A DNA stretch of 64,000 nucleotides from Gammaproteobacteria bacterium (GCA_021773175.1 JAJFKO010000059.1:845-64844), one strand, 5' to 3'. Shown: positions 27,251 to 30,123, counted from the stretch's first letter. The notes: generated by a model from the sequence alone, not told the origin. Translations and numbers: made by a program.

Positions 27251-27375
27251 CAGGACTTACACTAAATACCAATCTCTTTGTTAATTATGTTGTCAAAAAA
27301 ACTTACGCATTACGTAATACTATCGATTATATTGAAAACACACTGCCTCGACCTTGGTATTTAGCGTAAGTCCTG
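27251..27375. repeat. 125-bp MITE-like element, copy A
   Basis: Terminal inverted repeats CAGGACTTACACTAAATA / TATTTAGCGTAAGTCCTG. Internal attacgtaat palindrome. About 85% identical to copy B in direct orientation. Confidence 0.6.
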
Positions 27376-27424
27376 TAAGTTGTTAAATTGATTTTATTTT
27401 TGAGATGTGTACCATGCAAACTAC

Positions 27425-27501
27425 GCCCCGGTGGCACAGCTGGATAGCGCGATCCCCTCCTAAGGGATAGGTCGCAGGTTCGAATCCTGCCCGGGGCGCC
27501 A
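27425..27501 (+). tRNA. tRNA-Arg (anticodon CCT)
   Basis: Folds as a cloverleaf. Acceptor GCCCCGG/CCGGGGC with discriminator G and encoded CCA. Anticodon stem ATCCC/GGGAT with loop CT-CCT-AA. T-arm GCAGG-TTCGAAT-CCTGC. 77 nt. Confidence 0.85.
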
Positions 27502-27540
27502 TTTATTTCGAGTCATTAATCCTTAATAACTCACTTGATC

Positions 27541-27918
27541 TTAGTTGTAATGATGAAACTGCTTTTCATAAACATTAGCTTGTAACAAAATAGTTTTGAA
27601 TACGGCTTTAGCAATCGAACCTGGATAGCCAGCTTGTTGTGCTTGCTGACTAACTGTTTTCAATATTAGATTTTCACGCGCTTGGTCATGGACAGACTTA
27701 GTATGCTTTTTCAATTCACCTGCACGCGCCACATTACGCAGACGTTCACCAAGTAATTTAACAATGGCTTTATCTACTGTATCAATATTCTTGCGTACAC
27801 ACTGTAGATTCTGACAGTTTTGAGCAGGAGTAAGCCCATTATTGATCGTGGTAGCCAAACTCATTTGTGATATTAGCCCAAATACAGAAATCATAATTAT
27901 TATTATAGTTTTTTGCAT
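27541..27918 (-). CDS. small secreted AroQ-type chorismate-mutase-like protein
   Basis: 125 aa. Signal peptide (MQKTIIIIMISVFGLISQMSLA), then …LQCVRKNIDTVDKAIVKLLGERLRNVARAGELKK…HDQARENLIL… The R…IDxxDxxIxxLLxER…K and downstream E pattern resembles periplasmic chorismate mutases. Confidence 0.45.
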   Translation of the reverse strand: MQKTIIIIMISVFGLISQMSLATTINNGLTPAQNCQNLQCVRKNIDTVDKAIVKLLGERLRNVARAGELKKHTKSVHDQARENLILKTVSQQAQQAGYPGSIAKAVFKTILLQANVYEKQFHHYN

Positions 27919-27944
27919 TTTTATCTCCTTAGTTATGTAGAGTA

Positions 27945-29957
27945 TTAATCATCATGTAGAAAACATTTTACTTTATGCGTATCGGTAATATTTGTTGTGT
28001 GAGGGTACGCTTGTCGACACTTCGCCATAACATGTGGGCAACGCGCCGCAAAATGACAACCTTGCGGCGGATTAAAGGGTGATGGCGGCTCACCTGTTAA
28101 TTTCATAAATTGCTGAGCTGTCTCTTGCTCAACATCTGGCACCGCAGCTAATAATGATTGGGTATAGGGATGTTTCGCTTGCGTCAAAATTTCTGTAACA
28201 CTACCCTCTTCGACAATACGCCCTAAATACATCACCGCAACGCGTTGTGCTAAATAACCAACCACAGCTAAATTATGCGTAATAAATAAATATGACAATC
28301 CCAGCTTGCGCTGTAACTCTTGGAGTAAATTTAATATTTGTGCTTGTACCGAAACATCCAAAGCACTAGTGGGCTCATCACAAATAATCAATTTAGGTTC
28401 AACGGCTAATGCTCGCGCAATACAAATACGTTGGCGTTGTCCACCTGAAAATTCATGAGGATAACGATCTAAAATATCAGTTGGCATGCCTACAGCAGAT
28501 AATAACTCTTCGATCCGAGGTATTAGCTCATTGCGTTTATGCTTAATACGATGGATACGCATGCCTTCTGCAATAATATCGGCAATCATCATACGTGGAT
28601 TCATTGAAGAAAAAGGATCTTGAAAAATAAATTGCATTTGTTGGCGTAACTCATGGCCTTGTCTTCTTGAGTTGTGTTGATAATCCTGGCCATTAAAATA
28701 AAGCTCGCCAGCAGTAGGCTTAATCAAATTTAAAATACCCTTACCAACGGTGGTTTTACCACAACCTGATTCCCCCACCAAAGCCAATGTTTCCCCTTCT
28801 TTAATCGTAAGACTAACACCATCAACCGCTTTAATATTACCAACAACACGCTGTAATAAACCTTTGCGTACAGGAAAATGCACTTTTAGACCTTTTACTT
28901 CAAGCACAGACTTGCTTATATCCTCAGTCGCTTTTAATTGACTTGATTTTGCTGTAATGGTTTCTTCGGCTTGAAAATAGTGAGCGTAACTTTTAGTAAA
29001 TCGATGACACAAAACACCATGCTTTGTTTGTGAAGTATGCCAACGTGGTGTTTGTTTATAACATATTTCTTTTGTGTATTGGCAACGACCAGCAAAACGA
29101 CAACCTGTCGCATCGGCCTGTAAAGTCGGCACGATACCAGGAATAGTAATGAGTTGTTCTTCGCGTCGATTCAAACTCGGCAATGCTTGTAATAAACGTT
29201 GACTATAAGGATGTAGCGGTTCTTTAAAAAAATCTTTTGTCGTCGCAGATTCAACAATATTACCTGCATACATTACAATTAAACGATCGGACATTGCCTT
29301 AACAACAGCAAGATCATGCGTTATTAATAAAATCGCCATACCTGTTTTGGTTTGAATTTCTTGTAATAGAGCAAGAATTTGTGCTTGAATGGTTACATCA
29401 AGAGCGGTTGTTGGCTCATCCGCAACGAGAATATCAGGCTCACCAGCTAAAGCCATGGCAATTACAATTCGTTGTTTCATACCACCAGACAATTGATGAG
29501 GGTATTCTTTATAACGCCGTTCTGCTTCTGGAATACCAACTAAGCTTAATAACTCTAGCGCGCGCTCACGTACTTTTTTTGCAGATAAAGAAAAATGTGT
29601 TCGAATCGCCTCGGCGATTTGATCACCAATGGTTAATACAGGATTAAGAGAAGTCATGGGTTCTTGGAATATTTGGCTGATACGCCGACCACGAAATTGT
29701 CGCATAGCCACTTCAGGCAATGCTAATAAATTTTGTTGATCAATAATAATCTCACTGCCATCAACAATTCGCACAGCAGGAGGCAATAACTGCATTAACG
29801 CCATTGCTGTCATGCTTTTACCACAGCCAGATTCGCCGAGTAACGCTAGAGTTTCACCTCGTTTTAAGGTAAAACCAATTTGATTAATAACAATCGCCGT
29901 ATGGTTTTGCTGCTGTATGCCAAGAGTTAAATTATTAACTTCTAATACTGCTGTCAC
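27945..29957 (-). CDS. ABC transporter ATP-binding protein with two tandem NBDs (YejF/GsiA/DppDF-like); no partner permease or SBP nearby
   Basis: 670 aa. Two sets of Walker A (GESGCGKS / GESGCGKT), signature (LSGGMKQR / FSGGQRQR) and Walker B. Cys-rich oligopeptide-ABC C-terminal extensions (CRFAGRC…C; CHFAARCPHVMAKC). Confidence 0.85.
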   Translation of the reverse strand: MTAVLEVNNLTLGIQQQNHTAIVINQIGFTLKRGETLALLGESGCGKSMTAMALMQLLPPAVRIVDGSEIIIDQQNLLALPEVAMRQFRGRRISQIFQEPMTSLNPVLTIGDQIAEAIRTHFSLSAKKVRERALELLSLVGIPEAERRYKEYPHQLSGGMKQRIVIAMALAGEPDILVADEPTTALDVTIQAQILALLQEIQTKTGMAILLITHDLAVVKAMSDRLIVMYAGNIVESATTKDFFKEPLHPYSQRLLQALPSLNRREEQLITIPGIVPTLQADATGCRFAGRCQYTKEICYKQTPRWHTSQTKHGVLCHRFTKSYAHYFQAEETITAKSSQLKATEDISKSVLEVKGLKVHFPVRKGLLQRVVGNIKAVDGVSLTIKEGETLALVGESGCGKTTVGKGILNLIKPTAGELYFNGQDYQHNSRRQGHELRQQMQFIFQDPFSSMNPRMMIADIIAEGMRIHRIKHKRNELIPRIEELLSAVGMPTDILDRYPHEFSGGQRQRICIARALAVEPKLIICDEPTSALDVSVQAQILNLLQELQRKLGLSYLFITHNLAVVGYLAQRVAVMYLGRIVEEGSVTEILTQAKHPYTQSLLAAVPDVEQETAQQFMKLTGEPPSPFNPPQGCHFAARCPHVMAKCRQAYPHTTNITDTHKVKCFLHDD

Positions 29958-29998
29958 AATCTTCTTCCCTGATGCTTTATAAAGCGGCTATTTATTAT

Positions 29999-30123
29999 CA
30001 GGACTCACGCTAAACCCCAATCTCTTTGTTAATTATCTTGTCAAAAAATCTCATGTATTACGTATACTATCAATTATTTTGAAAACATAATTGCCTCGAC
30101 CTTGGCATTTAGCGTGAGTCCTG
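29999..30123. repeat. 125-bp MITE-like element, copy B
   Basis: TIRs CAGGACTCACGCTAAACC / CATTTAGCGTGAGTCCTG. Its right end overlaps the last codons and stop of the aldo-keto reductase gene (stop at 30109). Confidence 0.6.

What the first reader, a model, noticed from the sequence alone, without database searches (positions are those of the whole stretch)
27251..30123. MITE-like repeat family (AGGACTTAC…GTAAGTCCT); two 125-bp copies bracket a tRNA-Arg / chorismate-mutase / orphan ABC-ATPase segment
Full copies lie at 27251-27375 and 29999-30123, in direct orientation and about 85% identical. Each has 18-bp terminal inverted repeats and an internal attacgtaat palindrome.

Shorter and eroded relatives occur at 53449-53525, 59306-59359, 16828-16920, 21206-21297 and about 23775 (left end only). 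All are intergenic.

Copy B overlaps the final codons and stop of the aldo-keto reductase gene, a classic MITE behaviour. The 2.6-kb segment between the two full copies contains tRNA-Arg(CCT), a secreted chorismate-mutase-like gene and a stand-alone double-NBD ABC ATPase. It could be a composite cassette mobilised in trans, or an island inserted next to the tRNA.

The termini do not match Correia, ERIC, REP or RPE elements that I can recall.
Basis: seen in the sequence. Interest (0 to 1): 0.6.

Follow-up and report, generated by a model that had tools for sequence, protein, structure and literature searches.

The report
Small IS701-derived transposon repeats (MITEs)
The repeats are real miniature transposons, cut-down relatives of an IS701-type insertion sequence found in Legionella-like bacteria, but the two 125-bp copies landed independently next to ordinary resident genes rather than carrying those genes in as a mobile cassette.

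Summary
Two 125-bp copies (27251-27375, 29999-30123) are 86.5% identical, lie in direct orientation, and have 22-bp terminal inverted repeats. Related termini occur far above chance.

The family is a MITE derived from the ISPlag1/ISAba11-type branch of the IS701 family.
- Members in the window, L. pneumophila, L. adelaidensis and several MAGs carry 5-bp target-site duplications: 11 of 17 perfect, against 0.4% in controls.
- Full-length 1.18-kb insertion sequences (ISs) in Legionellales MAGs share the CAGGACTTACG termini and the 5-bp duplication, and encode an IS701-family transposase.
- The published ISPlag1 end is CAGGACTTACGC….

The cassette and island readings are not supported.
- A and B each keep their own 4/5 duplication, while their outer flanks match only 2/5.
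- A distant relative without MITEs also has the ABC ATPase near der.
- There is no integrase, no att repeat and no GC shift.

The "eroded" copies at 16.8 kb and 21.2 kb are two halves of one MITE (duplication ATACT). It is split by a 4.3-kb insertion carrying a degraded IS30 transposase.

Copy B does supply the last four codons and the stop of the aldo-keto reductase.

This is a new member of a known kind, of modest interest.

The parts
27251..27375 (+). MITE copy A, 125 bp. The TIR is CAGGACTTACACTAAATACCAA / CAGGACTTACGCTAAATACCAA, and the central palindrome is ATTACGTAAT. It lies 50 nt upstream of tRNA-Arg and 112 nt upstream of the divergent malic-enzyme gene.
   Evidence: nhmmer E = 1e-28; RNA fold z = -6.5 and -7.7
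27246..27250 (.). Left half of copy A's target-site duplication (CAAGT). The right half is TAAGT at 27376-27380. The match is 4/5.
29999..30123 (+). MITE copy B, 125 bp, in the same orientation as A. Both TIRs carry the paired variant CTCAC/GTGAG. Positions 30109-30123 encode QDSR and the stop codon of the aldo-keto reductase.
   Evidence: E = 3e-31; z = -8.8 and -9.8
29994..29998 (.). Left half of copy B's target-site duplication (ATTAT). The right half is ATTGT at 30124-30128. The match is 4/5.
16828..16916 (-). One half of a third copy of the same subfamily, equal to positions 1-88 of reverse-complemented copy A. It includes one TIR and the GTATTACGTAATAC centre. The outer flank is ATACT (16823-16827).
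   Evidence: (E = 2e-9)
21246..21290 (-). The other half of the same copy, equal to positions 79-124 of reverse-complemented copy A, with the second TIR. The outer flank is ATACT (21291-21295), a perfect 5-bp duplication with 16823-16827.
   Evidence: (E = 7e-6)
16917..21245 (.). A 4.3-kb insertion that splits the third MITE copy. It holds orphan ORFs and a degraded IS30-family transposase ORF (20349-21158, minus strand). It is absent from the comEC-msbA spacer of the relative L010, which is 26 bp. Its own ends were not identified.
   Evidence: (NF033563, 209 bits)
53449..53526 (-). Short 78-bp family member with both TIRs (TAGGACTTACGATAAA / TAGGACTTATGCTAAA) and an unrelated core. It has no recognisable duplication. 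It lies between two tandem paralogous orphan genes.
   Evidence: (E = 6e-5 and 6e-4)
59305..59360 (.). Probable degenerate 56-bp relic with inverted TAGGGCTTAC / TAGGACTTAT ends. Individually marginal.
   Evidence: E = 0.11 and 3.3
27425..27501 (+). tRNA-Arg(CCT), a resident gene between A and B. It is not part of the element.
27541..27918 (-). CM_2 chorismate mutase with a signal-peptide-like N-terminus. Resident gene.
27945..29957 (-). Double-NBD ABC ATPase of the Opp/Dpp type (ABC_tran x2, oligo_HPY x2). Its location near der is shared with a distant relative.
30109..31062 (-). Aldo-keto reductase. Its last four codons and stop codon come from the TIR of copy B. The Pfam Aldo_ket_red match ends at residue 311 of 317 (profile positions 2-290 of 291), so only the tail is replaced.

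Best explanation
**What it is.** The repeats are non-autonomous miniature transposons (MITEs). They derive from, and are moved in trans by, a DDE transposase of the ISPlag1/ISAba11-type branch of the IS701 family.

**How it works.** The transposase recognises the conserved roughly 22-25-bp ends (C/T)AGGACTTACG(A/C)(A/T)AAA.... It excises the element and inserts it at a 5-bp staggered cut in A+T-rich intergenic DNA, which produces a 5-bp target-site duplication. Shown here: the shared ends, the 5-bp duplications, and the existence of cognate full-length ISs in Legionellales. Inferred: cut-and-paste transposition and trans-mobilisation.

**History in this window.**
- At least three copies of one lineage-specific subfamily (A, B and the split copy) and one short variant inserted independently.
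- All are old. Their duplications are 4/5 or perfect, and A and B are 86.5% identical.
- No transposase of this type is encoded in the 64 kb.
- The genes between A and B are resident genes, not cargo.

**Side effects.**
- Copy B replaced the last few codons and the stop of the aldo-keto reductase.
- Any transcript that crosses an element gains a long hairpin.
- The two direct copies could in principle recombine and delete the interval, but only rarely: the longest identical run is 20 bp.

**Spread.** The MITE arms are 81-89% identical to L. pneumophila copies, although the host's Der protein is only about 56-60% identical to any known one. The family has therefore spread horizontally, probably on plasmids. 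A decayed copy sits on the pLPP-type conjugative plasmids.
For: **The family is real**
- End-motif excess and paired-end matches.
- Paired-end scan hits in L. pneumophila subsp. fraseri and two MAGs, including a second L. pneumophila copy in the same locus.
- At least 9 places in L. adelaidensis.
- A compost-metagenome copy.

**Target-site duplications**
- 11 of 17 elements have perfect 5-bp flanking repeats and 3 more match at 4/5.
- Mismatched-flank controls give 0.4% and 3.3%.

**Cognate IS**
- L005 6811-7989 is 1179 bp. Its ends are CAGGACTTACGAAAGACTCCGAT... and ...TTTTCGTAAGTCCTG, and it has a 342-aa ORF.
- The ORF is an IS701-family transposase: NF049921, 374 bits against a cutoff of 250.
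- Further full copies occur in Legionellales MAGs. L023 is one. L025 has the duplication TGAAT.

**The same hallmark in characterised relatives**
- ISPlag1 is 1306 bp with duplication TTCAA. Its transposase is 54% identical, and its published TIR is CAGGACTTACGCAAGCACGC... (PMC2464740).
- A Moraxella osloensis IS has duplication GAATA.
- An A. baumannii IS has TAGGACTTACGC ends.

**Independent insertion of A and B**
- Own-flank versus outer-flank comparison.
- Synteny in L010.
- Flat GC profile.
- No att repeat.

**Horizontal spread**
- Arms 81-89% identical, cores about 53%.
- Der 56% identical to L. adelaidensis and at most 60% to anything else.
- Decayed copy on a plasmid.
Against: - No IS701-type transposase is present in the window (tblastn). 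The rest of the source genome could not be searched, so a resident partner is unproven.
- The full-length ISs match the MITEs only over about 22-25 nt at one end and about 17 nt at the other. The longer MITE arms (CCAATCTCTTTGTTAA and GCCTCGACCTTGG) have no counterpart in any IS seen. The direct parent has therefore not been found.
- The duplications of A and B are imperfect. The 78-bp and 56-bp members have none.
- Mobility itself is inferred from sequence signatures. It has not been observed.
Confidence: 0.87

Rival explanations
1. Composite cassette. Copies A and B act as the two ends of a 2.9-kb compound transposon that brought tRNA-Arg, the chorismate mutase and the ABC ATPase to this site.
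For: - The two copies bracket the segment.
- The family can act this way. In L005 a MITE, a 270-aa ORF and a full IS are together flanked by one 5-bp duplication, ACTTA/ACTTA, while neither element has its own.
Against: - The outer flanks CAAGT and ATTGT match 2/5, whereas each copy's own flanks match 4/5.
- The ABC ATPase occupies the same neighbourhood (der ... ABC ATPase ... comEC-msbA-lpxK) in a 61%-identical relative that shows no MITE in the 16 kb examined.
- GC content does not differ from the flanks.
Confidence: 0.04
2. tRNA-linked genomic island. The segment integrated next to tRNA-Arg by site-specific recombination, and the repeats are its att-like borders.
For: A tRNA gene lies at one edge of the segment.
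Against: - No integrase or recombinase lies in or beside the interval.
- No second copy of the tRNA 3' end exists, even allowing 3 mismatches.
- The repeats are palindromic TIR elements also found at unrelated loci and in other genomes.
- The tRNA lies inside the interval, not at its border.
- There is no compositional shift.
Confidence: 0.02
3. The repeats are host-selected structured elements, such as REP/BIME-like sites, RNA hairpins that stabilise or terminate transcripts, or a small RNA family. On this view they are maintained for function rather than being transposon relics.
For: - Strong predicted hairpins: z = -6.5 to -12.6 for the 124-125-nt copies.
- All positions are intergenic.
- Copy B carries a symmetric paired change in both TIRs, T>C with A>G, that keeps the ends complementary.
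Against: - The 5-bp target duplications and the shared termini with transposase-encoding ISs explain both the origin and the structure.
- There is no Rfam match.
- There is no terminator-like T tract, and the scan found no promoter-like or terminator-like site inside either copy.
- Cores differ completely between species while the ends are kept. That is the pattern expected for transposase binding sites.
- REP elements lack target duplications (general knowledge).
- Secondary co-option of individual copies is not excluded.
Confidence: 0.07

Closest known systems
ISPlag1 (Planktothrix agardhii; IS701 family) and its 197-bp remnants
   Same: - The terminal sequence is the same. The published TIR is CAGGACTTACGCAAGCACGCTATATATAG (PMC2464740).
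- A 5-bp duplication (TTCAA) flanks the 1306-bp copy examined.
- Its transposase is 54% identical to that of the Legionellales IS that shares the MITE ends.
- Short internally deleted derivatives that keep the TIRs are reported in the same paper.
   Different: - The host is a cyanobacterium.
- Beyond the first 12 nt, its TIR and the interior are unrelated to the window elements.
- The window elements are 125-bp near-perfect palindromes with their own conserved 36-nt arms.
ISAba11-type IS701-family elements of Acinetobacter and Moraxella
   Same: - TAGGACTTACGC termini.
- A 5-bp duplication in the M. osloensis copy (GAATA); the A. baumannii copy fits AAGGT only if one terminal base is assigned to the duplication.
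- ISAba11 is an active IS701-family element (PMC9771954).
   Different: - These are full-length autonomous ISs of about 1.15-1.2 kb. Their transposases are 48-55% identical to the Legionellales one.
- I did not verify that the A. baumannii plasmid copy is ISAba11 itself.
- The published 5-bp duplication of ISAba11 is recalled from memory, not checked.
Full-length IS701-family ISs of Legionellales MAGs (L005 6811-7989; L023 2855-4035; L025 2847-4035)
   Same: - The ends CAGGACTTACGAAARAC(T/C)C... match the MITE ends over about 22-25 nt.
- L025 has a 5-bp duplication.
- They occur in the same taxonomic neighbourhood as most MITE copies. In L005 an IS lies 1.4 kb from a MITE.
   Different: - They are 1.18 kb and encode a 342-aa transposase.
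- They lack the MITE-specific sub-terminal arms.
- None was found in the window.
Correia elements (Neisseria), ERIC/IRU, RPE, REP/BIME and QMITE1/2 of Coxiella
   Same: All are small, intergenic, palindromic repeats that can fuse to gene ends and form RNA hairpins. QMITE overlaps with gene 3' ends are reported in PMC5896051.
   Different: - The termini are unrelated.
- Correia elements duplicate TA, and REP elements have no duplication and depend on RAYT transposases (general knowledge).
- QMITE1 is about 400 bp and QMITE2 about 190 bp, with other TIRs and direct repeats of 2-4 or 7-9 bp.
- Here the duplication is 5 bp and the partner belongs to the IS701 family.

Membership tests
[quoted passage not shown] | Small size (under about 300-400 bp) with no coding capacity | tested here: met
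   Elements are 125, 125, about 125 (split), 78 and 56 bp. No ORF lies within them.
[quoted passage not shown] | Terminal inverted repeats | tested here: met
   22-bp TIRs matching at 21/22 (A) and 20/22 (B). Eight significant TIRs in the window.
[quoted passage not shown] | Target-site duplication of fixed length | tested here: met
   5 bp. Across MITEs and related ISs, 11/17 are perfect and 3/17 match 4/5; the control gives 0.4% and 3.3%. In the window the split copy is perfect (ATACT) and A and B are 4/5.
[quoted passage not shown] | Multiple dispersed copies in a genome | tested here: inconclusive
   There are 4-5 elements in the 64 kb, at least 4 in the L. pneumophila fraseri loci and at least 9 places in L. 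adelaidensis. The genome-wide count for the window's own organism could not be obtained.
[quoted passage not shown] | A cognate autonomous IS with the same termini that could act in trans | tested here: met
   Met in related genomes (L005, L023, L025). Not found in the window itself.
IS701 family, ISPlag1/ISAba11-type branch (as the source of the MITE) | Terminal sequence (C/T)AGGACTTACG shared by members of the branch | tested here: met
   All seven full-length ISs examined, and the MITEs, begin this way.
IS701 family, ISPlag1/ISAba11-type branch (as the source of the MITE) | 5-bp target duplication | tested here: met
   ISPlag1 TTCAA, M. osloensis GAATA, L025 TGAAT, plus the MITEs.
IS701 family, ISPlag1/ISAba11-type branch (as the source of the MITE) | DDE transposase matching the IS701 family model | tested here: met
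   The partner IS scores NF049921 at 374 bits (cutoff 250) and matches Pfam DDE_Tnp_1. This does not apply to the MITE itself, which encodes nothing.
IS701 family, ISPlag1/ISAba11-type branch (as the source of the MITE) | Demonstrated mobilisation of the MITE by that transposase | not testable with these tools
   This needs a transposition or binding assay.
Composite (compound) transposon formed by copies A and B | One target duplication flanking the whole unit, with none around the individual ends | tested here: not met
   Outer flanks match 2/5. Each copy's own flanks match 4/5.
tRNA-associated genomic island | Integrase gene, direct repeat of the tRNA 3' end at the far border, atypical composition | tested here: not met
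   No integrase, no repeat and GC content equal to the flanks.
REP/BIME and Correia-type repeats | REP: no target duplication, and a RAYT partner. Correia: TA duplication and a characteristic 26-bp TIR. | tested here: not met
   The duplication here is 5 bp and the termini differ. The defining features of REP and Correia elements are taken from general knowledge.
Any Rfam RNA family | Covariance-model match at the gathering score | tested here: not met
   Only the tRNA matched.

The most novel reading that the evidence does not exclude
In this family, MITE ends might routinely pair with each other or with a full IS to move intervening genes. If so, it would act as a small cargo shuttle for orphan, effector-like genes among amoeba-associated Gammaproteobacteria.

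Two structures are compatible with this:
- In L005, a MITE, a 270-aa orphan ORF and an IS sit inside a single ACTTA duplication.
- In the window, 16828-21290 is a 4.46-kb unit bounded by the two TIRs inside a single ATACT duplication. It carries orphan ORFs, among them a 122-aa Cys-rich protein with a hydrophobic, signal-peptide-like N-terminus.

The second structure could have been mobilised as a unit rather than being a MITE hit later by an insertion.
Probability: 0.15. Interest if true: 0.5.

Novelty: new member of a known kind. Interest (0 to 1): 0.3.

Why it matters
- It gives these repeats a family, a partner transposase type and a diagnostic signature: YAGGACTTACG ends with a 5-bp duplication. 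This can be used to annotate them in Legionella and related genomes. I found no specific description of this family in the searchable literature. A 2024 census only reports that 99.6% of Legionella genomes contain conserved MITEs.
- It removes a false lead, since the tRNA, chorismate-mutase and ABC-ATPase segment is not a mobile cassette.
- It documents small gene-level effects: a MITE-encoded C-terminus and stop codon, and a MITE used as the landing site of another mobile element.
- It shows MITE arms shared between hosts whose core proteins are only about 56-60% identical. That is a marker of horizontal exchange in this ecological group.

Tried and rejected
- **Exact-protein look-ups of window proteins** found no stored contig. 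The rest of the source genome (a 74.7-kb NCBI contig) could not be read, and no copy census or search for a resident transposase was possible.
- **Genome-collection scan with the paired-end pattern** returned only 6 loci and did not include the source organism.
- **Metagenome scan with a single-end pattern** gave two true members (L013, L017) and four apparent chance hits in coding DNA.
- **Viral scans** found nothing useful.
- **Plasmid BLAST hits on pLPP-type plasmids** were first considered as possible IS ends. They proved to be a decayed partial MITE.
- **Coxiella QMITE1/2** are unrelated.
- **Literature.** String searches for the terminal sequence mostly hit primers, but one led to ISPlag1. 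Supplements of the MITE census paper are not held, and the ISAba11 description paper is not held.
- **Ends of the 4.3-kb insertion.** I looked for IS30 inverted repeats or a duplication at its borders and found none. A roughly 9-nt overlap of the two MITE halves is too weak to call.
- **Promoter and terminator scan** of 27.1-30.3 kb found fewer sites than in shuffled sequence and none inside the elements.
- **Taxonomy of the source.** A Der homologue search gave no hit above 60% identity, so only 'deep-branching, AT-rich gammaproteobacterium' can be said.
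Full report
**1. The observation**

They share 109 of 126 aligned columns, or 86.5%.

Their terminal inverted repeats are about 22 bp, matching at 21/22 in A and 20/22 in B. The centre of A is the palindrome ATTACGTAAT; B has lost one base of it.

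The family is not a chance pattern:
- The 15-nt end motif occurs 9 times against 0.35 expected.
- A paired-end pattern finds three elements against none in shuffled sequence.
- A profile built from termini alone gives eight significant ends.

Those eight ends make up four elements: A, B, a 78-bp member at 53449-53526, and one further copy discussed in section 4. The 56-bp element at 59305-59360 is marginal. The 'left end only' near 23775 is a bare 9-10-mer and is not significant.

- tRNA-Arg(CCT)
- a CM_2 chorismate mutase with a signal-peptide-like N-terminus
- a double-NBD ATPase of the Opp/Dpp type
- an aldo-keto reductase, with der beyond it

Copy B does supply the reductase's last four codons and its stop: CAG GAC TCA CGC TAA, giving QDSR*. 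The Pfam Aldo_ket_red match ends at residue 311 of 317, so only the tail of the protein was replaced.

**2. What the repeats are**

A paired-end scan of one genome per species found the same element in three sources:
- Legionella pneumophila subsp. fraseri, with three copies; a fourth lies in the same locus
- a Legionellaceae MAG
- an unclassified gammaproteobacterial MAG

BLAST against plasmid records found at least nine places in L. adelaidensis replicon fragments. It also found a decayed partial copy on the pLPP-type conjugative plasmids of several Legionella species. A metagenome scan added a 101-bp variant from compost.

Across species, the outer roughly 36 nt at each end are conserved. 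The left arm reads CAGGACTTACGATAAACCCCAATCTCTTTGTTAA and the right arm reads GCCTCGACCTTGGGGTTTATCGTAAGTCCTG. The cores differ. The window arms are 81-89% identical to L. pneumophila arms, against about 53% for the cores, whereas the A and B cores are 83% identical to each other.

The decisive signature is in the flanks. Members carry 5-bp direct repeats:
- Perfect: TTGTT, ATCAT, TCCAT, ACCTA, GTTAT and TCTTT
- L. adelaidensis copy: ATAGT/GTAGT
- Copy A: CAAGT/TAAGT
- Copy B: ATTAT/ATTGT

Counting the related full-length ISs as well, 11 of 17 elements have perfect 5-bp duplications and 3 more match at 4/5. Mismatched-flank controls give 0.4% and 3.3%. These elements are therefore products of transposition with a 5-bp staggered target cut.

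**3. The partner element**

In the Legionellaceae MAG locus, 1.4 kb from its MITE, lies a 1179-bp element at L005 6811-7989. Its ends are CAGGACTTACGAAAGACTCCGAT... and ...TTTTCGTAAGTCCTG, and it carries a 342-aa ORF. The ORF is an IS701-family transposase: NCBIfam NF049921 at 374 bits against a cutoff of 250, plus Pfam DDE_Tnp_1.

Homologues at 60-86% identity are common in metagenomes, and the named ones are Legionellales. Two more full copies were read. L023 has the end CAGGACTTACGAAAAACCCC.... L025 has the duplication TGAAT and has inserted into a Tn3-family transposase gene.

More distant relatives show the same hallmark:
- ISPlag1 of Planktothrix is 54% identical in its transposase. The copy examined is 1306 bp, exactly the published length, with ends CAGGACTTACGCAGGCAC... 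and duplication TTCAA.
- A Moraxella osloensis IS is 55% identical, with TAGGACTTACGCAAAAAGC... and duplication GAATA.
- An A. baumannii plasmid IS is 48% identical, with TAGGACTTACGCATTAAC....

The ISPlag1 paper prints the TIR as CAGGACTTACGCAAGCACGCTATATATAG. It assigns the element to the IS701 group and describes 197-bp remnants that retain the TIRs (PMC2464740). ISAba11 is an active IS701-family element (PMC9771954), and L. pneumophila genomes carry an IS701-family copy (PMC13599499).

The window family is thus a MITE of this IS701 branch. What remains inferred is that such a transposase moved these particular copies:
- The MITE-specific arms inside the first roughly 25 nt have no counterpart in any IS seen, so the direct parent has not been identified.

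**4. The 'eroded' copies at 16.8 and 21.2 kb are one interrupted copy**

Aligned to reverse-complemented copy A, 16828-16916 covers positions 1-88 and 21246-21290 covers positions 79-124. The outer flanks are ATACT (16823-16827) and ATACT (21291-21295). A single MITE of the A/B subfamily therefore inserted in the comEC-msbA spacer and now contains 4.3 kb of foreign DNA.

That DNA holds orphan ORFs and a degraded IS30-family transposase ORF next to one junction (NF033563, 209 bits). In a distant relative, comEC and msbA are 26 bp apart.

I could not find IS30-type inverted repeats or a duplication at the borders of the insert. I therefore cannot say whether an IS30-linked segment hit a resident MITE or the whole 4.46-kb unit moved on the MITE ends.

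**5. Is the 27.2-30.1 kb interval a cassette or an island?**

The family can form composites. In L005 the MITE, a 270-aa orphan ORF and the IS are together flanked by ACTTA/ACTTA, while neither element has its own duplication.

A and B fail that test. Their outer flanks match 2/5, while each copy's own flanks match 4/5.

The only informative relative is a MAG whose ABC ATPase is 61% identical. Its gene order is der, two signalling genes, the ABC ATPase, xseA, one gene, then comEC-msbA-lpxK, and nhmmer found no MITE in its 16 kb. The ATPase therefore belonged to this neighbourhood before the MITEs arrived.

GC content is 0.38-0.40 across the interval and its flanks. There is no integrase. The tRNA 3' end is not repeated, even allowing three mismatches. 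The cassette and island readings are not supported.

**6. Likely consequences**

If transcribed, the 124-125-nt copies fold into long hairpins, with z scores from -6.5 to -12.6. The simple scan finds no promoter-like or terminator-like sites inside them.

Copy A lies between the divergent malic-enzyme gene and tRNA-Arg, 50 nt from the tRNA. Copy B lies between the reductase stop and the ABC ATPase start, 41 nt from that start. Effects on expression are possible but untested.

Recombination between A and B would delete the tRNA, the chorismate mutase and the ATPase. The longest identical run is only 20 bp, so this should be rare.

**7. Host and spread**

Every window protein looked up (five) is a singleton at 90% identity. 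Der is 56% identical to L. adelaidensis Der and at most 60% identical to any protein in the database. The source is therefore a deep-branching, AT-rich gammaproteobacterium and not a Legionella species.

Arms 81-89% identical to L. pneumophila copies point to horizontal movement of the MITE itself, not independent derivation from an IS in each lineage. The decayed copy on conjugative plasmids suggests a vehicle. That last step is inference.

**8. Comparison and verdict**

The elements behave like other bacterial MITEs (Correia, RUP, QMITE and others) but share no sequence with them, and they differ in duplication length (for QMITE; general knowledge for the rest). There is no Rfam family.

I found no paper that describes this family. 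A 2024 census states only that 99.6% of Legionella genomes contain conserved MITEs (PMC11602168), and its supplements are not held.

This is a new member of a known kind: a useful annotation and a tidy example, but not a surprise. The MITE reading is supported and now has a named parent family. The cassette and island readings are not supported.

Noticed in passing
window 16917-21245: A 4.3-kb insertion lies inside a MITE, between msbA and comEC. It carries a degraded IS30-family transposase ORF (20349-21158) and orphan ORFs with no Pfam or NCBIfam match. Among these are a 122-aa Cys-rich protein with a hydrophobic, signal-peptide-like N-terminus (18465-18833) and a 218-aa protein (19590-20246). 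The borders of the insert could not be defined.
   Followed up: partly
L005 5317-7989 (Legionellaceae MAG JARGPO010000009.1): A MITE (5317-5438), a 270-aa orphan ORF (5815-6627) and a full IS701-type IS (6811-7989) are flanked together by ACTTA/ACTTA. Neither element has its own duplication. This looks like a compound transposon built from one MITE and one IS.
   Followed up: partly
window 29999-30123: Copy B carries a symmetric change in both TIRs relative to every other member: CTTAC>CTCAC on the left and GTAAG>GTGAG on the right. The change keeps the ends complementary. It could reflect descent from a variant master copy, repair within a hairpin, or selection on structure.
   Followed up: no
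window 34514-49810 and 60296-63988: There is a very large NRPS gene (5098 aa, with about 3.2-kb module repeats) and a second NRPS gene ending in a thioesterase domain. The second gene may extend beyond the window, because its ORF call starts at 63988, 12 nt from the window end. Between them lie three orphan genes of 443-457 aa with no Pfam match. Two of these are tandem paralogs (about 75% nucleotide identity over a 300-nt stretch) with the 78-bp MITE in the spacer between them.
   Followed up: partly
L007 3960-4042 (pLPP, NC_006365.1) and L008: A decayed partial copy of the MITE (…TTTTGCCTCGACCTTGAGATTTTTCGTCC) sits between a response-regulator gene and an ankyrin-repeat gene. It is found on the pLPP-type conjugative plasmids of L. 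pneumophila, L. hackeliae, L. sainthelensi, L. longbeachae and L. anisa.
   Followed up: partly
L004 5757-5885 and 6048-6122: In the MAG OY968770.1 the family member, which has a G+C-rich hairpin core, lies about 160 nt upstream of a tRNA-Val gene. This echoes copy A, which lies 50 nt upstream of tRNA-Arg. It may be coincidence or a preference for tRNA promoter regions.
   Followed up: no
L025 493-4725: The Legionellales IS701-type IS (2847-4035, duplication TGAAT) has inserted into a Tn3-family transposase gene. It separates the DUF4158 N-terminal part from the DDE_Tnp_Tn3 part.
   Followed up: no
window 538-5817: Three or four consecutive paralogous genes of about 456-475 aa on the minus strand share conserved blocks (repeat families D8 and D10). 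They were not characterised.
   Followed up: no
whole window: The source organism has no close relative in the protein database. All five window proteins looked up are singletons at 90% identity, Der is at most 60% identical to anything else, and the ABC ATPase is at most 61% identical. GC content is 31-41%. This points to a deep-branching, AT-rich gammaproteobacterium, possibly allied to Legionellales.
   Followed up: partly
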